64,000 nt of DNA, taken from Candidatus Campbellbacteria bacterium. Its GTDB lineage: Bacteria > Patescibacteriota > Minisyncoccia > Phycocordibacterales > JAXHMZ01. Both the position numbers and the translations under genes were made by a program. Positions 12,893-63,828 of this stretch are shown one piece after another (the first letter of the stretch is position 1; the number at the start of each line of letters is the position of its first letter). The notes beneath the pieces were generated by a model. That model was not told where the DNA came from. It did not search any database and saw nothing but the letters and a program-made list of their open reading frames with translations. Location: the NCBI GenBank assembly GCA_034521025.1, contig JAXHMZ010000005.1, positions 197,176 to 261,175 of the forward strand. Direction: 5' to 3'.

Positions 12893-13516
12893 TTAGGATC
12901 GCGCGCTTTGGAATCTCTCTTCCGGAACTCGCCAGTTGGTGTTTTTCATTACTGCTTCAACGTAACTGCTCTTTTCGCTCGGAGCGTAGTCCAGCATAAA
13001 GGCGTGCTCCCACATATCAATTCCAAAGATGAATTGCGCGCTGTTTAGGTGTCCAAGGTGTTGCTCATCTATCCAGCTGTTTAGCAACCTGTCTTTTTCA
13101 CGATCGTAATAAAGGATCGCGAATCCGATGCCGCGCATACCTGTTAAGTAAACGATGTCCTCCTTCCAGGTCTCGACAGAACCAAAGTCCTCTTCAAGTT
13201 TTTGAGCAAGGGGGCTTTCCGGATCTATCTCCTGAATACCTTCCGTGAACTGCTCAAAGAAATATTCGTGGTTGCGCATTCCTCCGAATTCAAAGGCGAA
13301 ACGCCTGCGCGCCTCTAGAAGAGCGTATTTGTTATTCTCATCGCCACGAAGGGACTCTATAAGATCCAGAACTTTATTGGTATTCTTTACGTAACCTGAG
13401 TAGAGACCCAGGTGGGTGTCCATTGTTTTCTCGGAGATCCCTTCGAGCGCGTGGAACTCGAATTGTTGTTCGCTATAGTGATTCATAAGTTTTACTGTTA
13501 GCTTGTAATTAATCAC
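12893..13516 (-). CDS. sodA: Fe/Mn-family superoxide dismutase
   Basis: C-terminal 'IFGIDMWEHAFMLDY' matches the GIDVWEHAYY SOD signature. N-terminal helical hairpin with His residues. 207 aa. Confidence 0.8.
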   Translation of the reverse strand: MINYKLTVKLMNHYSEQQFEFHALEGISEKTMDTHLGLYSGYVKNTNKVLDLIESLRGDENNKYALLEARRRFAFEFGGMRNHEYFFEQFTEGIQEIDPESPLAQKLEEDFGSVETWKEDIVYLTGMRGIGFAILYYDREKDRLLNSWIDEQHLGHLNSAQFIFGIDMWEHAFMLDYAPSEKSSYVEAVMKNTNWRVPEERFQSARS

Positions 13517-60325: not shown

Positions 60326-60545
60326 CAAGTCCCTCCTTTCGTCTGCCTCTTTGATAATACTAGCACGTCTACTATGCCTGAGAAAATACTAAAGGAGTAC
60401 CTGCCCGAACGGCCAGGCGGTTCTGGTCGGGTGGGTCCGCTCGAACGCCCCCTGAATGAAATTTATTTCGGGCAGGTGCCGTTCGGTACGGGCGGGCTGA
60501 ATCTGTAAGATTCAAGTCTCGCCCTTTTCAATAAAATTTCTCACA
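60326..60545 (-). promoter_or_regulatory. Long GC-rich structured 5' leader of the DUF1653 gene (candidate cis-regulatory RNA)
   Basis: Alternative, mutually exclusive pairings between 'CCGAACGGC'/'CUGCCCGAA' and a downstream 'GCCGUUCGGGCAG'. Contains a 'GAACCGCCUGGCC' segment. Confidence 0.3.
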
Positions 60546-60648
60546 GTATTTATACAATACACGCCGCTGGATAGATGCACTATCCACATTGCTTTCGAAG
60601 AAGAGGTTATATAACTATGCTATAGTCAAGGAAACATAAATTAAAAAA

Positions 60649-60815
60649 GCGGTTTGTATGGTGAAGTAGGGTGAAAGTCCCTCACTGTCGCGCAACGGTT
60701 AGAGTCCGATCCCATACAATGCCTCCCAAGTGGAGCTGCTTATGATGCGCGTGACGTCCTGGTGAACACCTTTCGTATATCACCGAATGCACACGCATCG
60801 GTGATTTATGTTTTA
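60649..60815 (+). promoter_or_regulatory. Cobalamin-riboswitch-like element with an intrinsic terminator expression platform, upstream of nrdB
   Basis: P1 stem 'UUGUAUGG...CCAUACAA' enclosing 'GGUGAAAGUCCC...CACUGUCGCGCAACGGUUAGAG'. This closely parallels the E. coli btuB core 'GGAGCUGACGCGCAGCGGUAAGG' and the 'GGUGnAAnUCC' motif. It is followed by hairpin caccgaatgc / gcatcggtg plus a U-run. Confidence 0.5.
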
Positions 60816-60827
60816 AACACATAGCGT

Positions 60828-62141
60828 ATGCAAAAGACTTCCATCACAACAATAATTAAACGAGACGGTTCCGAGGAAGCCTTTGATCTTTCCAAGATCA
60901 CCGCAGCGATCTCAAAGGCTTTTGATGCGACCGATACAGGTTCGGCAGAAGAGGCGAAAAAAGTTGCCAATACAGTATATGAAAAGATCGCTACTTTATG
61001 CGATCACGCTTCTGCTGACAGAGACGCAGACGAGCGCTGCAACGATGGCAAGCCCGCCGTCGAGACCATTCAGGATCTTGTCGAAGAATCTCTTATGGAG
61101 CATAACTACCATGAGATAGCCAAACGCTATATCCTCTATCGCAACGAGCGTGCCAAACAGCGTGAACCCGACCTCTTCGAGAAGCGCACAAACCTACGCC
61201 CGTATGAATACCCTGATCTAGTTGAATATGTAGATGCTATTCGGCACTCCTACTGGCTCCATACCGAGTTTAATTTTACGAGTGACGTGCAAGATTTTAA
61301 GGTCAATGTTTCCGACAAGGAGCGTAGTGCGATCAAAAACGCTATGCTTGCAGTCGCTCAGGTTGAAGTAGCGGTTAAGACGTTCTGGGGAGATATTTAT
61401 AAAAAGATGCCAAAGCCCGAGGTAGGTGCTGTTGGCTATACGTTTGCGGAAAGCGAGGTGCGACATATGGACGCGTACGCACATCTTTTGGAAATACTTG
61501 GACTCAACGACGAATTCAAGCGCATAAAAGAGATTCCGGCTATACACGAGCGTCTCACGTATCTCGAAGACATCCTGCAAAGATCCCGCACCAATGACAA
61601 TCGTGAATATACGGAGGCGATTTTGTTATTCTCGCTTTTCACCGAGCACGTATCGCTCTTCTCGCAGTTCCTCATCATTATGTCCTTCAATAGACATAGG
61701 AATCTATTCAAGGGCATATCCAATGCGGTGGAGGCAACCTCGAAAGAGGAACAGATCCATGGACTTTTCGGGAGCGAACTTATTAATCAAATAAAGCGCG
61801 AACACCCCGAATGGTTTGACGATGAACACAAAGAGACGATCTATCAAGTGTGTCGCGACGCGTACGCCGCAGAAGAAAAGATCATTGACTGGATCTACGA
61901 GAAAGGCGAGTTGGATTTCTTGCCGGCTGTTACCGTTAAAGAGTTTGTTAAAAATCGGCTCAACAACTCGCTCGAGAGAATCGGAATGGAAAGACCCTTC
62001 GAGGTAGACGAAAAGCGTATCGAGGAGACCGATTGGTTTGACGATGAAGTGATCGCTACTAAACACAACGACTTTTTCTTCAAACGATCGATCAATTACA
62101 ACAAACGTTCCGCAAGCGTTACCAGTGATGACTTATTTTAA
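60828..62141 (+). CDS. nrdB: Class I ribonucleotide reductase beta subunit with an N-terminal ATP-cone domain
   Basis: N-terminal 'IIKRDGSEEAFDLSKITAAISKA' ATP-cone. Ferritin-like core with 'ESEVRHMDAY' (ExxH plus radical Tyr) and 'EEQIHGLF' (ExxH). Confidence 0.85.
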   Translation: MQKTSITTIIKRDGSEEAFDLSKITAAISKAFDATDTGSAEEAKKVANTVYEKIATLCDHASADRDADERCNDGKPAVETIQDLVEESLMEHNYHEIAKRYILYRNERAKQREPDLFEKRTNLRPYEYPDLVEYVDAIRHSYWLHTEFNFTSDVQDFKVNVSDKERSAIKNAMLAVAQVEVAVKTFWGDIYKKMPKPEVGAVGYTFAESEVRHMDAYAHLLEILGLNDEFKRIKEIPAIHERLTYLEDILQRSRTNDNREYTEAILLFSLFTEHVSLFSQFLIIMSFNRHRNLFKGISNAVEATSKEEQIHGLFGSELINQIKREHPEWFDDEHKETIYQVCRDAYAAEEKIIDWIYEKGELDFLPAVTVKEFVKNRLNNSLERIGMERPFEVDEKRIEETDWFDDEVIATKHNDFFFKRSINYNKRSASVTSDDLF

Positions 62142-62151
62142 ATAGTATATT

Positions 62152-63828
62152 ATGTCGTACCAATGGCTAAATGAAAACTCTCGTACTTTTCTTGAACGTG
62201 GATACCTCCAGAAGGGAGCTACCCCGGAGAGCCGCGTTCGTGAGATCGCTGAGACCGCTGAAAAGATCCTTGAAAAACCCGGTTTTGCTGATAAATTTGA
62301 AAAATACATGGCCGCCGGCTATTACTCGCTCGCTACGCCGGTCTGGATCAACTTTGGCTTAAATACCGGTTTACCGATAAGCTGTTTTGGTTCTTACATT
62401 CCGGATGATATGGCGAACATTCTCTATACTCAGGCGGAGGTGGGAATGATGAGTAAGTTCGGCGGCGGAACGTCGGCTTACTTTGGTGAGCTGCGCGGTC
62501 GTGGCGCGACGATCAAAGATCGCGGGCATTCATCCGGTTCCGTCCATTTTATGCAGCTGTTTGAGACGATCACTAATATTGTCAGTCAGGGCTCGGTACG
62601 GCGCGGACAGTTTTCTCCATATTTGCCGATCGATCATCCGGACATTGAAGAATTCCTTGATATTGGTTCAGAAGGGAATCCTATCCAGAAGCTCACTCAC
62701 GGTGTCACCGTTGATGACAAGTGGCTGCAGGGGATGATCGACGGCGACGAGGATAAGCGCCGTATTTGGGCGAAACTCATCGAACGGCGCGGACAAATGG
62801 GCTATCCCTATATTTTCTTCACTGACAATGTGAACAACAATACCGTTGATGTTTATAAAGATAAGGATCTCAAAATCTACGCGAGCAATCTCTGCACAGA
62901 GATCATGCTTCCGTCGCGGTCAGATTGGTCGTTTGTCTGCGATCTCTCCTCAATGAACCTGCTGTACTATGACGAATGGAAGGACACGGATGCCGTCGAG
63001 ACAATGACGCAACTTCTCGACGCTGTTATGAGCGAGTTTATACAAAAGCTAGAGGCTTTGCGTGATTCGGACGATAAAGATGATCGACTCGCATTCTTGT
63101 TTATGGAGCGCGCGTACAATTTCGCAACCGCGAACCGCGCGATCGGACTCGGCGCACTCGGCTGGCATTCTCTGCTGCAATCGAAAATGATCCCACTCGA
63201 GAGCGATGAAGCGAATGAGATAAATGCTGAGATCTTCAAAACCATTCGTGACAAAGCTTATGCCGCTTCTTCCCAGATGGCTAAGGATTATGGCGAACCC
63301 GAAATTCTCAAAGGCTATGGCCGCCGCAACACAACCGTTATGGCGGTTGCACCGACCACGTCCTCGGCTTTTATTATCGGTCAAGTGTCTCAGAGTATCG
63401 AACCCTACTTCTCTAACTGCTATGTCAAAGACATCGATAAGATGAAGGTAACGATCCGCAATAGCTCGCTTGAGAAGCTGCTTGAAGAAAAAGGAAAAAA
63501 TGATCGCGAAACCTGGAGCAGTATCCGTGACAACGACGGTTCCGTCCAGCACCTCTCATTCCTTAACGAGAATGAAAAAGCTGTCTTTCGCACGTTCGCC
63601 GAGATCGACCAATCTGTGATCATCAAGCAGGCGGCAGATAGGCAAGAGTACATTGATCAGGCCCAGTCTCTCAATCTAATGATCCCGCCGGATATGTCCG
63701 CCAAGGAAATAAACGAACTCTATCTCTTGGCCTGGCGTCAAGGAGTAAAAACACTGTACTACCAACATAGCATGAATGCAGCCCAACAACTCAGCCGAGC
63801 AAAGGTGTGCATTGCGTGTGAAGCATAA
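62152..63828 (+). CDS. nrdA: Class I ribonucleotide reductase alpha subunit, short form without an ATP-cone
   Basis: 'NLCTEIMLPS' active-site region and a C-terminal 'CIAC' cysteine pair. 558 aa, with no N-terminal ATP-cone. Confidence 0.85.
   Translation: MSYQWLNENSRTFLERGYLQKGATPESRVREIAETAEKILEKPGFADKFEKYMAAGYYSLATPVWINFGLNTGLPISCFGSYIPDDMANILYTQAEVGMMSKFGGGTSAYFGELRGRGATIKDRGHSSGSVHFMQLFETITNIVSQGSVRRGQFSPYLPIDHPDIEEFLDIGSEGNPIQKLTHGVTVDDKWLQGMIDGDEDKRRIWAKLIERRGQMGYPYIFFTDNVNNNTVDVYKDKDLKIYASNLCTEIMLPSRSDWSFVCDLSSMNLLYYDEWKDTDAVETMTQLLDAVMSEFIQKLEALRDSDDKDDRLAFLFMERAYNFATANRAIGLGALGWHSLLQSKMIPLESDEANEINAEIFKTIRDKAYAASSQMAKDYGEPEILKGYGRRNTTVMAVAPTTSSAFIIGQVSQSIEPYFSNCYVKDIDKMKVTIRNSSLEKLLEEKGKNDRETWSSIRDNDGSVQHLSFLNENEKAVFRTFAEIDQSVIIKQAADRQEYIDQAQSLNLMIPPDMSAKEINELYLLAWRQGVKTLYYQHSMNAAQQLSRAKVCIACEA

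What the first reader, a model, noticed from the sequence alone, without database searches (positions are those of the whole stretch)
60649..60827. Cobalamin-riboswitch-like leader with a terminator platform upstream of class I RNR genes
The leader contains a P1 helix (UUGUAUGG...CCAUACAA) around a core carrying 'GGUGAAAGUCCC' and 'CACUGUCGCGCAACGGUUAGAG'. This matches the conserved 'GGUG.AA.UCC' and 'GCUGACGCGCAGCGGUAAGG' elements of cobalamin riboswitches. It is followed by a hairpin plus U-run terminator ending 13 nt before the nrdB ATG. B12 riboswitches on class I or III RNR operons are known where a B12-dependent class II RNR is also present. This compact, class-II-like variant would imply B12-responsive repression of nrdBA. 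It would also predict a B12-dependent RNR, or at least B12 uptake, elsewhere in the genome.
Basis: partly seen in the sequence, partly recalled or inferred. Interest (0 to 1): 0.6.

Follow-up and report, generated by a model that had tools for sequence, protein, structure and literature searches.

The report
B12 riboswitch controlling class I RNR
The leader of this candidate-phylum bacterium's oxygen-dependent ribonucleotide reductase operon is a genuine compact vitamin-B12 riboswitch, a known kind of control that most likely stops transcription when B12 is available.

Summary
Window 60651-60722 scores above Rfam's curated threshold for the compact cobalamin riboswitch RF01689 (41.3 bits, cutoff 36.5). 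It is the only riboswitch hit in the 64 kb.

The element is larger than Rfam's model. An outer helix encloses the aptamer and a small hairpin. A 4-bp hairpin follows whose loop (CGCGUGA) can kiss the aptamer's L5 loop (CGCG).

I collected about 65 related leaders from metagenomes. 57 of 63 have this CGCG-loop hairpin (about 3.5 expected by chance), and all helices covary.

In the window, that hairpin's 5' strand and loop are also complementary to the loop and 3' arm of a terminator ending 13 nt before the start codon. The two folds are mutually exclusive and nearly isoenergetic. This gives a B12-OFF transcription attenuator.

The regulated genes are an ATP-cone::NrdB fusion and a short NrdA. 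The host is a Campbellbacteria (CPR) MAG.

Only 2 of 80 orthologous nrdB loci carry the element, but the closest relative does. In two separate lineages the riboswitch-nrdBA locus also holds B12-dependent NrdJ. Whether this genome has NrdJ could not be checked.

B12 riboswitches on B12-independent RNR genes are already known, so this is a new member of a known kind.

The parts
60618..60626 (+). Probable extended -10 promoter element TGCTATAGT. This would put the transcript start about 15 nt before the outer helix.
   Evidence: Sequence. Related leaders have TGGTAAGAT, TGTTAATAT or TGCTATGCT at the same relative position. The sigma-70 scan found no full -35/-10 pair, so this is inference only.
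60649..60652 (+). P0 outer helix, 5' strand (GCGG). It pairs with 60736-60739 (CUGC) and encloses the aptamer plus Px.
   Evidence: Alignment A2 columns 6-9 with 100-103: all 4 pairs show changes on both sides, 82.7% of cells paired. Also present in the MFE fold.
60654..60661 (+). P1 (merged with P3), 5' strand UUGUAUGG. It pairs with 60712-60719.
   Evidence: Rfam alignment. A2 columns 11-18 with 69-76: 6 of 8 pairs have compensatory changes.
60668..60682 (+). P4 hairpin AGGG-UGAAAGU-CCCU, the 'GGUG.AA.UCC' loop.
   Evidence: Rfam alignment. A2 columns 25-28 with 36-39: 100% paired, and the two outer pairs covary (AU/CG/GC/UA).
60686..60694 (+). P5 hairpin UGU-CGC-GCA. The L5 motif CGCG (60689-60692) is the proposed kissing-loop partner of L13.
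   Evidence: Rfam alignment. The middle pair is G-C in 32 sequences, A-U in 9 and G-U in 1, although the search pattern allowed R and Y independently.
60696..60708 (+). P6 hairpin CGG-UUAGAGU-CCG, short, with no peripheral extension.
   Evidence: Rfam alignment. These pairs are invariant in A2, partly because the search pattern fixed them.
60709..60719 (+). J6/3 (AUC, a degenerate B12-box 3' end) followed by the P1 3' strand CCAUACAA.
   Evidence: Rfam alignment: the consensus GAGcGCCaC is matched by GAUC-CCAUA.
60723..60735 (+). Px hairpin CUCC-CAAGU-GGAG, between P1 and the P0 3' strand.
   Evidence: A2 columns 80, 83 and 84 with 97-99: all 3 pairs have compensatory changes, 71% paired. Homologous hairpins occur in L001, L033 and L200.
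60736..60739 (+). P0 outer helix, 3' strand (CUGC).
   Evidence: helix 1.
60744..60758 (+). P13 regulatory hairpin GAUG-CGCGUGA-CGUC. The L13 loop (60748-60754) carries CGCG, complementary to L5. Positions 60744-60753 double as the antiterminator strand 'A'.
   Evidence: 57 of 63 related leaders have a CGCG-loop hairpin here, against a mean of 3.5 (max 9) in 200 shuffles. A2 columns 110-113 with 121-124: all 4 pairs covary, 89% paired.
60761..60765 (+). GGUGA, which can pair with UCACC 60780-60784 in the terminator 5' arm. This is an auxiliary part of the antiterminated fold.
   Evidence: Present in the MFE of the transcript truncated at the U-run.
60779..60805 (+). Intrinsic terminator hairpin: AUCACCGA(A)UGC, loop ACAC, GCAUCGGUGAU. 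Positions 60790-60799 (CACACGCAUC) are strand 'B', which pairs with A in the antiterminator.
   Evidence: Hairpin -14.6 kcal/mol. The best A:rest duplex is -16.1 kcal/mol, with the segment AAUGCACACGCAUCGG. L200 has the homologous hairpin, and its A:B pairing is kept through a U-A to C-G change.
60806..60814 (+). U-run UUAUGUUUU of the terminator.
   Evidence: Sequence.
60828..62141 (+). nrdB encoding an ATP-cone::NrdB fusion (437 aa), the first regulated gene.
   Evidence: Pfam ATP-cone 1e-21 and Ribonuc_red_sm 2.5e-60. 60% identical to the Leeuwenhoekiella blandensis orthologue (L061).
62152..63828 (+). nrdA (558 aa, no ATP-cone), the second regulated gene.
   Evidence: Pfam Ribonuc_red_lgN and lgC. 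NCBIfam TIGR02510 at 756 bits, cutoff 602.

Best explanation
Window 60644-60814 is a cobalamin (B12) riboswitch of the compact class II type (Rfam RF01689, AdoCbl-II). It sits in the 5' leader of an nrdB-nrdA operon in a Candidatus Campbellbacteria genome and most likely works as a B12-OFF transcription attenuator.

Shown:
- The aptamer helices P1, P4, P5 and P6 are real and covary.
- An outer helix P0 encloses the aptamer and a small hairpin Px.
- Immediately downstream, a 4-bp hairpin P13 presents the loop CGCGUGA, whose CGCG is complementary to the CGCG of L5.
- The P13 5' strand plus loop (GAUGCGCGUG) is also complementary to the loop and 3' arm of a terminator (CACACGCAUC).

Inferred:
- With corrinoid bound, the L5-L13 kissing loop locks P13 shut. 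The terminator 60779-60805 plus its U-run then forms, and transcription stops 13 nt before the nrdB start.
- Without ligand, P13 opens and its strand pairs with the terminator loop and 3' arm. GGUGA (60761-60765) pairs with the 5' arm. The terminator cannot form and nrdBA is transcribed.
- Biologically, when B12 is available the cell shuts off its oxygen-dependent, B12-independent class I RNR and presumably relies on a B12-dependent class II enzyme.

Which corrinoid form is sensed (AdoCbl, or MeCbl/HyCbl) is unknown.
For: Membership:
- RF01689 scores 41.3 bits against a gathering score of 36.5, over the full model.
- On a 42-sequence alignment, 90.4% of cells pair against 76.1% in shuffles. 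The covariation score is 0.36 against 0.147, reached by 0 of 500 shuffles. Slid controls give 0.06-0.10.
- Compensatory changes occur in P0, P1, P4, P5, Px and P13.
- My model R1 scores the window at 111 bits.

Kissing loop:
- The search pattern fixed L5 but said nothing about the downstream sequence.
- 57 of 63 leaders nevertheless have a CGCG-loop hairpin 15-45 nt after P1, with a 7-nt loop in 53. Shuffles give a mean of 3.5 and a maximum of 9.
- The literature establishes the L5-L13 kissing loop, with L13 presented in a stem-loop, as the switch of this class (PMC5028336).

Platform:
- For the transcript ending at the U-run, the MFE (-21.3 kcal/mol) is the antiterminator.
- Enforcing P13 with L13 unavailable gives the terminator fold (-20.4 kcal/mol).
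- The closest relative L200 behaves the same way (-37.2 and -31.1 kcal/mol) and keeps the A:B pairing through a U-A to C-G change.
- In related nrdD and nrdA leaders, 25 of 27 have a hairpin plus U-run. In 24 of those 25 the P13 segment can pair with that hairpin at -8 kcal/mol or better.
- In btuB leaders the P13 3' strand is instead the Shine-Dalgarno sequence.

Logic:
- The same subfamily sits in front of class III nrdD, class I nrdA, ATP-cone nrdB and btuB.
- NrdJ is encoded in the same locus in L033 (PRK08665, 1139 bits, cutoff 961) and in the L116/L132/L169 clade (PRK08115, 1337 bits, cutoff 854).
- B12-riboswitch control of class I nrd operons is experimentally known in Streptomyces (Borovok 2006, as cited in PMC12528414).
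Against: - No ligand binding or termination was measured. Everything is computational.
- The L5:L13 pairing is invariant (CGCG with CGCG), so it cannot be supported by covariation, only by co-occurrence.
- L5 was fixed by my search pattern, so the collected set is ascertained for it.
- The B12-box 3' end is degenerate in the window (GAUC-CCAUA against the consensus GAGcGCCaC), and the Rfam score is only 4.8 bits above threshold.
- The two platform folds differ by under 1 kcal/mol. Kinetically, the local terminator hairpin could outcompete the long-range A:B helix.
- The whole-leader fold is not unusually stable (z = -1.16).
- 78 of 80 orthologous nrdB loci lack the element.
- No nrdJ, btu or DUF4430 gene is present in the 64-kb window. 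The rest of the genome could not be read.
- No Shine-Dalgarno sequence is visible before the ATG, so a translational component cannot be assessed.
Confidence: 0.8

Rival explanations
1. It is a genuine cobalamin aptamer, but control is mainly translational or acts through mRNA stability. Start-site occlusion or ribosome access would be the regulated step, and the hairpin plus U-run would play little role in the decision.
For: In the best-studied class II member, and in the btuB leaders of this same subfamily, P13 carries the ribosome-binding site and control is translational (PMC5028336). In the full-length window leader the MFE pairs AUGCGC (60745-60750) with GCGUAU (60823-60828), which touches the start codon. 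The terminator ends only 13 nt before the AUG.
Against: The window has no recognisable Shine-Dalgarno sequence in or near P13. The AUGCGC:GCGUAU pairing would occlude the start in the ligand-free state, which is the wrong polarity for repressing a B12-independent enzyme. In RNR leaders of the subfamily, 25 of 27 nrdD and nrdA examples have a clear hairpin plus U-run that P13 can invade. L200 keeps the terminator/antiterminator pair.
Confidence: 0.1
2. It is a B12-activated (ON) switch. Kissing-loop formation would remove a structure that otherwise terminates transcription, so nrdBA would be induced by B12.
For: Activating corrinoid riboswitches exist (reference list of PMC12528414). In the AT-rich nrdB clade (L116/L132/L162) the ligand-free A:B helix is itself a long hairpin ending 2-4 nt before the U-run, and could in principle terminate.
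Against: In the window and in L200, the fold with P13 locked is the one that contains the terminator, and the free fold destroys it. Inducing a B12-independent RNR with B12 has no obvious rationale. The same element also precedes btuB and uptake genes, where repression by B12 is the rule.
Confidence: 0.05
3. It is a decaying or non-functional relic, or a chance resemblance. The aptamer-like sequence would no longer bind ligand and the hairpin would be an unrelated attenuator.
For: The Rfam score is close to threshold and the B12-box 3' end is degenerate. The whole-leader fold has z = -1.16. Most orthologous leaders lack the element.
Against: The window scores 111 bits on a model that also includes P0, Px and P13. 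All helices are intact in the window and covary across the family. The element is preserved, with compensatory changes, in a relative whose NrdB is only 76% identical. The E-value is 1.9e-6 for the whole 64-kb window.
Confidence: 0.05

Closest known systems
Class II cobalamin riboswitches (Rfam RF01689, AdoCbl-II, formerly AdoCbl-variant; type example env8HyCbl, Johnson et al. 2012; Polaski et al. 2016, PMC5028336)
   Same: It has the compact four-way-junction aptamer without a P6 extension and passes the family's gathering score. It has a regulatory hairpin P13 downstream of P1 whose loop is complementary to L5, the feature the literature identifies as the switch.
   Different: L5 and L13 carry a palindromic CGCG, whereas the Rfam consensus L5 is aCCU. 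The single-stranded J1/13 linker is replaced by a hairpin (Px) and an outer helix (P0) that encloses the aptamer. P13 controls a terminator through an antiterminator instead of holding the ribosome-binding site. Several clear relatives score below Rfam's threshold (L200, L132, L102, L179, L113, L130) or carry large insertions that Rfam misses (L001, L033).
Streptomyces coelicolor nrdABS B12 riboswitch (Borovok et al. 2006, J Bacteriol 188:2512, PMC1428431; cited in PMC12528414)
   Same: A cobalamin riboswitch lies in the leader of a class I RNR operon and acts at the level of transcription, in an organism that also has B12-dependent NrdJ. The physiological logic is the same.
   Different: From my own knowledge, not tested here: the Streptomyces element is the long classical type (RF00174) in an actinomycete, and it regulates a class Ia enzyme with the ATP-cone on NrdA. 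Here the element is the compact class II type in a CPR bacterium, and the operon is nrdB-first with the ATP-cone on NrdB.
Classical cobalamin riboswitch (RF00174; E. coli btuB) and RF01482 AdoCbl
   Same: They belong to the same clan CL00101, share the GGUG.AA.UCC and ACGGU...AGUCCG core elements, and use an L5 pseudoknot or kissing loop.
   Different: The window has no P6 peripheral extension, and these two models score lower on it than RF01689 (one search kept only the best of the clan). One relative, L134, is instead called RF01482 at 50.2 bits against a cutoff of 50. L033 has a 51-nt insertion in P6. The subfamily therefore sits at the borders of Rfam's three models.
ATP-cone::NrdB class I RNR of Leeuwenhoekiella blandensis (Rozman Grinberg et al. 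2018, PMC5794259; class Id Mn2 cofactor, PMC6754362)
   Same: The regulated enzyme has the same architecture: an ATP-cone on NrdB and a short NrdA without an ATP-cone. It is 60% identical to the L. blandensis NrdB (L061).
   Different: The flavobacterial orthologues have no cobalamin riboswitch in front of nrdB. The metal cofactor of the window's enzyme was not examined.

Membership tests
Rfam RF01689 AdoCbl-II (class II cobalamin riboswitch) | Score at or above the curated gathering threshold of the family covariance model | tested here: met
   41.3 bits against 36.5, model positions 1-81 of 81, E = 1.9e-6 over the whole window.
Rfam RF01689 AdoCbl-II (class II cobalamin riboswitch) | Helices P1/P3, P4, P5 and P6 around a four-way junction, supported by covariation | tested here: met
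   All are formed in the window. On 42 sequences, P1 has 6 of 8 pairs with compensatory changes, P4 has 2 of 4 and P5 has 1 of 3. P6 is invariant. The overall covariation score is 0.36 against 0.147 in shuffles, reached by 0 of 500.
Rfam RF01689 AdoCbl-II (class II cobalamin riboswitch) | Conserved core sequence including the B12 box in J6/3 | tested here: inconclusive
   GGUGAAAGUCC and ACGGUUAGAGUCCGA match the consensus. The 3' end reads GAUC-CCAUA against the consensus GAGcGCCaC, with one deletion and two substitutions. The same GAUCCC is typical of the whole subfamily.
Rfam RF01689 AdoCbl-II (class II cobalamin riboswitch) | No peripheral P6 extension | tested here: met
   P6 is CGG-UUAGAGU-CCG, a 7-nt loop. 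Some relatives do carry insertions: 51 nt in P6 in L033 and 37 nt in L4 in L001.
Rfam RF01689 AdoCbl-II (class II cobalamin riboswitch) | A regulatory hairpin P13 whose loop can form a kissing loop with L5 | tested here: met
   GAUG-CGCGUGA-CGUC at 60744-60758, with L5 CGCG at 60689-92. 57 of 63 relatives have such a hairpin, against 3.5 expected, and the P13 stem covaries. The loop-loop pairing itself is invariant, so it is supported by co-occurrence only.
Rfam RF01689 AdoCbl-II (class II cobalamin riboswitch) | Binds a corrinoid (HyCbl/MeCbl or AdoCbl) | not testable with these tools
   Requires in-line probing, ITC or a reporter assay.
B12-repressed B12-independent RNR operons (Streptomyces nrdABS type) | A cobalamin riboswitch in the 5' leader, on the same strand, directly upstream of a class I or III RNR gene | tested here: met
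   The aptamer lies at 60651-60722 (+) and nrdB starts at 60828 (+).
B12-repressed B12-independent RNR operons (Streptomyces nrdABS type) | The same genome encodes a B12-dependent class II RNR (NrdJ) and/or corrinoid uptake | not testable with these tools
   None is present in the 64-kb window. The source contig is not indexed, and a search with NrdJ found no hit from this contig in the top 120. The feature is met in relatives: NrdJ in the same locus in L033 and in L116/L132/L169, and DUF4430 behind a second riboswitch-like hit in L001.
B12-repressed B12-independent RNR operons (Streptomyces nrdABS type) | B12-dependent reduction of nrd transcript | not testable with these tools
   Only the bistable terminator/antiterminator fold was computed.
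ATP-cone::NrdB class I RNR (L. blandensis type) | N-terminal ATP-cone on NrdB, and NrdA lacking an ATP-cone | tested here: met
   In NrdB, Pfam ATP-cone covers residues 8-109 and Ribonuc_red_sm covers 120-394. NrdA is 558 aa with only lgN and lgC and matches TIGR02510.
ATP-cone::NrdB class I RNR (L. blandensis type) | Mn2(IV,III) class Id cofactor and its ligand set | not tested
   Metal ligands were not examined.

The most novel reading that the evidence does not exclude
The window's element belongs to a distinct, largely unannotated sub-class of compact cobalamin riboswitch. Its marks are a palindromic CGCG:CGCG kissing loop, an outer P0 helix and a Px hairpin in place of the J1/13 linker. 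Members tolerate large insertions and partly escape all three Rfam models. The sub-class is specialised for switching between RNR classes (nrdD, nrdA, ATP-cone nrdB) in Patescibacteria/CPR and allied uncultured bacteria. On this reading, ultra-small bacteria that are presumed not to make B12 would use host- or community-derived B12 as the signal that decides which RNR class they express.
Probability: 0.3. Interest if true: 0.5.

Novelty: new member of a known kind. Interest (0 to 1): 0.35.

Why it matters
The regulatory principle is textbook: B12 represses the B12-independent isozyme. The value here is in the context and the detail.

First, it indicates that a Campbellbacteria (CPR) genome senses a cofactor it presumably has to obtain from its surroundings, and ties dNTP synthesis to it. 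I found no paper in the held library that combines riboswitches, cobalamin and Patescibacteria or Parcubacteria. That library is incomplete, so this is not proof of novelty.

Second, the comparative set gives a clean, testable expression-platform model: a CGCG kissing loop, with P13 doubling as the antiterminator. It also shows that Rfam's three cobalamin models miss a good fraction of this subfamily, which matters for annotating B12 regulons in metagenomes.

Third, a compact natural ligand-responsive terminator from a CPR organism could be a starting point for the inducible-expression tools that the Patescibacteria field says it lacks (PMC11665869).

Tried and rejected
1. L4 pairing idea. My first idea was a kissing loop between the L4 loop GAAAG (60674-78) and CUUUC (60770-74). 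I dropped it. A 5-mer complement within about 100 nt is roughly a 10% chance event, it is not conserved in relatives, and by homology with Rfam and the literature the kissing partner is L5, not L4.

2. Regex scan. A regex for the core motif across the 80 orthologous leaders found nothing. nhmmer then revealed L001 and L033, whose insertions break simple patterns.

3. Rfam on orthologues. Rfam at gathering threshold on 20 CPR orthologous loci found no cobalamin hit. This would have wrongly suggested the element is unique to the window. The custom model R1 corrected that.

4. Viral contigs. One pattern match (L081), which is a chance hit inside coding sequence.

5. False positives. About 49 of the 120 pattern matches were chance hits. 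Most had long gaps and lay in coding sequence, for example an FtsX-like gene. I filtered them out by requiring the P6 3' strand.

6. Source contig. Attempts to reach the rest of the source contig through the look-up of encoding contigs failed, both with the window's NrdB and with P0001.

7. NrdJ search. One protein search with the L033 NrdJ, looking for a hit on the 266,769-bp contig, found none in the top 120. This is inconclusive, not negative.

8. Terminator scanners. The built-in scanner misses the window's terminator, which I attribute to the bulged A in its stem. My own U-run heuristic also missed it. I evaluated it explicitly instead.

9. AT-rich nrdB clade. In L116/L132/L162 the ligand-free A:B helix ends close to the U-run, so their polarity is less clear-cut than in the window and L200. 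I did not resolve this.

10. NrdR boxes. I did not establish whether the palindromes at 60547-60586 are NrdR boxes.
Full report
**1. The observation**

- P1 is UUGUAUGG (60654-60661) paired with CCAUACAA (60712-60719).
- GGUGAAAGUCCC lies at 60670-60681.
- CACUGUCGCGCAACGGUUAGAG lies at 60683-60704.
- A bulged hairpin spans 60779-60805, followed by UUAUGUUUU up to 60814.
- The first start codon of the downstream ORF is at 60828, 13 nt later.

Rfam's covariance-model scan of the whole 64-kb window returns a single hit at gathering threshold. RF01689 (AdoCbl-II) matches 60651-60722 on the + strand at 41.3 bits against a cutoff of 36.5. The E-value is 1.9e-6 and the full model is matched. A permissive scan of 60330-60900 adds nothing credible.

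**2. The surroundings**

The downstream genes are a class I RNR.
- 60828-62141 encodes a 437-aa protein with an N-terminal ATP-cone fused to the small subunit.
- 62152-63828 encodes a 558-aa large subunit without an ATP-cone. It matches NCBIfam TIGR02510 at 756 bits against a cutoff of 602.

This is the architecture characterised in Leeuwenhoekiella blandensis (PMC5794259), whose orthologue is 60% identical (L061).

The NrdB sequence is identical to a protein annotated in an NCBI MAG of Candidatus Campbellbacteria, on a 266,769-bp contig. The window's gene content fits a small-genome CPR bacterium: a ribosomal-protein operon, pilin-like genes, several nucleotide kinases, DHFR-ThyA and a Fe/Mn SOD. 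The upstream neighbours are a DUF1653 gene on the other strand, pyrG and ftsEX.

**3. Is the element conserved?**

I fetched 80 orthologous ATP-cone-nrdB loci from species-representative genomes, both CPR lineages and Flavobacteriia.

Rfam at gathering threshold finds no cobalamin riboswitch in 20 CPR loci. However, nhmmer with the window's aptamer detects clear homologues just upstream of nrdB in L001 (Parcubacteria) and L033 (Kerfeldbacteria). Each has a large hairpin insertion, in L4 and in P6 respectively.

I then searched metagenome contigs with a pattern built from two conserved stretches, GGTGAAG N{15,45} CTRTCGCGYAACSGT. This returned 118 stretches. About 70 are genuine aptamers and the rest are chance matches in coding sequence.

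**4. What the subfamily regulates**

- 8 loci have ATP-cone nrdB plus nrdA, like the window.
- About 19 have class III nrdD (PRK08270).
- About 10 have class I nrdA with an ATP-cone (PRK07207/PRK06539).
- 8 have btuB (TIGR01779).
- The remainder have DUF4430-type secreted proteins (Pfam), BtuF-like binding proteins and a small membrane protein.

These are B12-independent RNRs and corrinoid-uptake genes, which is the classical B12 regulon.

**5. Anatomy beyond the Rfam model**

Nearly every genuine leader carries, 15-45 nt after P1, a 3-4 bp hairpin with a 7-nt loop beginning CGCG. Typical is GGCU-CGCGUCA-AGCC. In the window it is GAUG-CGCGUGA-CGUC at 60744-60758.

This sequence was not in the search pattern. 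57 of 63 leaders have it, against a mean of 3.5 (maximum 9) in 200 shuffles. The aptamer's L5 in this subfamily is also CGCG, where Rfam's consensus has aCCU. The two loops are therefore self-complementary partners.

In class II cobalamin riboswitches the ligand-dependent L5-L13 kissing loop is the regulatory switch, and L13 must be presented in a stem-loop (PMC5028336). This hairpin is therefore P13.

Many members, including the window, also have a small hairpin Px (60723-60735) between P1 and P13. An outer helix P0 (60649-60652 with 60736-60739) encloses the aptamer plus Px.

**6. Covariation**

On a 42-sequence alignment (A2) I counted pairs for the structure P0, P1, P4, P5, P6, Px and P13.
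- 90.4% of cells pair, against 76.1% in shuffles.
- The covariation score is 0.36 against 0.147, reached by 0 of 500 shuffles.
- Slid controls give 0.06-0.10.
- Compensatory changes occur in every helix except the pattern-fixed P6.
- The middle pair of P5 is G-C in 32 sequences, A-U in 9 and G-U in 1, although the pattern allowed all four combinations.

A covariance model built from this alignment (R1) gave these results against the orthologous loci:

| Locus | Score (bits) |
|---|---|
| window | 111 |
| L033 | 68 |
| L001 | 64 |
| other 78 orthologous nrdB leaders | no hit upstream of nrdB |

The closest relative of the window's NrdB (76% identity, L200) carries the full element at 87.8 bits. 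A more distant homologue, L201, does not.

Rfam's own models catch only part of the subfamily.
- L171, L115, L105, L160 and L149 pass RF01689.
- L134 passes RF01482.
- L200, L132, L102, L179, L113, L130, L001 and L033 pass none.

**7. Mechanism in the window**

The 5' strand and loop of P13 (GAUGCGCGUG, 60744-60753) are complementary in 9 of 10 positions to CACACGCAUC (60790-60799). That segment is the loop and first half of the 3' arm of the terminator. GGUGA (60761-60765) can pair with UCACC in the terminator 5' arm.

For the transcript ending at the U-run:

| Fold | Window (kcal/mol) | L200 (kcal/mol) |
|---|---|---|
| Unconstrained MFE (antiterminator, no terminator) | -21.3 | -37.2 |
| P13 closed with L13 unavailable (terminator forms) | -20.4 | -31.1 |

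The terminator hairpin alone in the window is -14.6 kcal/mol. L200 keeps the A:B pairing through a U-A to C-G exchange.

In related nrdD and nrdA leaders, 25 of 27 have a hairpin plus U-run. In 24 of those 25 the P13 segment can pair with that hairpin at -8 kcal/mol or better. In btuB leaders the P13 3' strand is instead the Shine-Dalgarno sequence.

The best-supported model is a B12-OFF transcription attenuator. Ligand stabilises the L5-L13 kiss, P13 stays shut, and the terminator forms. Without ligand, P13 melts into the antiterminator and nrdBA is transcribed. The helices and alternative pairings are shown. Ligand binding, the kiss itself and termination are inferred.

**8. Physiological logic**

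The window has neither. I could not reach the rest of the genome. A protein search with a CPR NrdJ did not surface a hit from this contig among the top 120.

The prediction holds in relatives.
- In L033 the gene immediately upstream of the riboswitch-nrdBA is NrdJ (PRK08665, 1139 bits against 961).
- In the L116/L132/L169 clade an NrdJ (PRK08115, 1337 bits against 854) lies a few kb downstream of nrdBA.
- In L001 a second, weaker R1 hit (25 bits) precedes a DUF4430 protein right after nrdA.
- Among the 80 species-representative loci, the only one with an adjacent NrdJ-like gene is L033, one of the two that have the riboswitch.

**9. Comparison with what is known**

Cobalamin riboswitches in front of B12-independent RNR genes are established, experimentally for the Streptomyces class Ia nrdABS operon (Borovok 2006, cited in PMC12528414).

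The aptamer is a member of Rfam RF01689, and the kissing-loop switch is the known mechanism of that class. The differences are matters of detail:
- a CGCG palindromic kiss;
- a structured P0/Px junction instead of a single-stranded linker;
- a terminator rather than a ribosome-binding-site platform;
- an ATP-cone-NrdB type operon;
- a CPR host.

I found no paper in the held library linking riboswitches, cobalamin and Patescibacteria or Parcubacteria. The library is incomplete, so I do not claim priority.

**10. Verdict**

This is a new member of a known kind. Interest is moderate to low for the principle and somewhat higher for the CPR context and the incompletely annotated subfamily.

Noticed in passing
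window 60397-60530 (+): A GC-rich block (66% GC against about 45% for the window) lies between the DUF1653 gene and the nrd promoter. It folds into a long hairpin (60399-60413 with 60467-60486), then a second GC-rich hairpin (about 60490-60526) followed by UUUUC, which looks like a terminator. MFE is -62.7 kcal/mol, z = -3.8, and 0 of 200 shuffles fold as well. There is no Rfam match even at E<=10. It overlaps a 44-aa ORF (60374-60508). It may be an unannotated small RNA.
   Followed up: partly
window 60547-60586: Two palindromes lie upstream of the putative nrd promoter: TGGATAG-N5-CTATCCA (60568-60586) and GTATT-TATAC-AATAC (about 60547-60561). They could be a regulator-binding site. Some riboswitch-free orthologous leaders (L026, L030) have ATAGATAAGTATCTAT-type palindromes that look like NrdR boxes. 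No NrdR-like ATP-cone gene is in the window.
   Followed up: no
L001 6147-6258 (+): A second, weaker cobalamin-riboswitch-like hit (25.4 bits with R1) lies directly after nrdA. It precedes a secreted DUF4430 protein (Pfam 3.8e-15), so riboswitch-controlled RNR and putative B12-binding genes are adjacent in this Parcubacteria relative.
   Followed up: partly
L033 about 207-2729; L132 5831-8401; L116 (minus strand); L169 10251-12554: B12-dependent class II RNR genes (NrdJ; PRK08665 in L033, PRK08115 in L132) are encoded in the same locus as the riboswitch-controlled nrdBA operons. L116 and L169 are close homologues of the L132 protein and were not scanned separately.
   Followed up: yes
L080 2587-2690 (-) and L054 2434-2539 (-): In two Flavobacteriaceae genomes a cobalamin-riboswitch-like element (about 23 bits with R1) lies on the opposite strand upstream of the ATP-cone nrdB locus. 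It presumably serves a divergently transcribed gene rather than nrdB.
   Followed up: no
L001, L033, L200, L132, L102, L179, L113, L130: Clear members of this riboswitch subfamily fall below the gathering scores of all three Rfam cobalamin models. L134 is called RF01482 rather than RF01689. Rfam-based annotation would therefore under-count B12 regulons in these lineages.
   Followed up: partly
L128 1882-1999 and 3257-3375 (-): Two tandem copies of the riboswitch lie on one 3.5-kb contig. One precedes a class I nrdA, and the other precedes a 291-aa protein I did not identify.
   Followed up: no
L201 9764-11707: A 568-aa ATP-cone NrdB homologue (P0003) with a separate glutaredoxin gene immediately upstream. 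The contig also carries PTS, LacI-family and glycosyl-hydrolase genes and has no riboswitch.
   Followed up: no
window 12893-13516 (-), 33851-34441 (-): A Fe/Mn superoxide dismutase and a GGDEF diguanylate cyclase are encoded in this small-genome CPR window. The SOD is of note because class Id RNRs have been proposed, for Flavobacterium johnsoniae, to be activated by superoxide. That point comes from my own knowledge and was not tested here.
   Followed up: no
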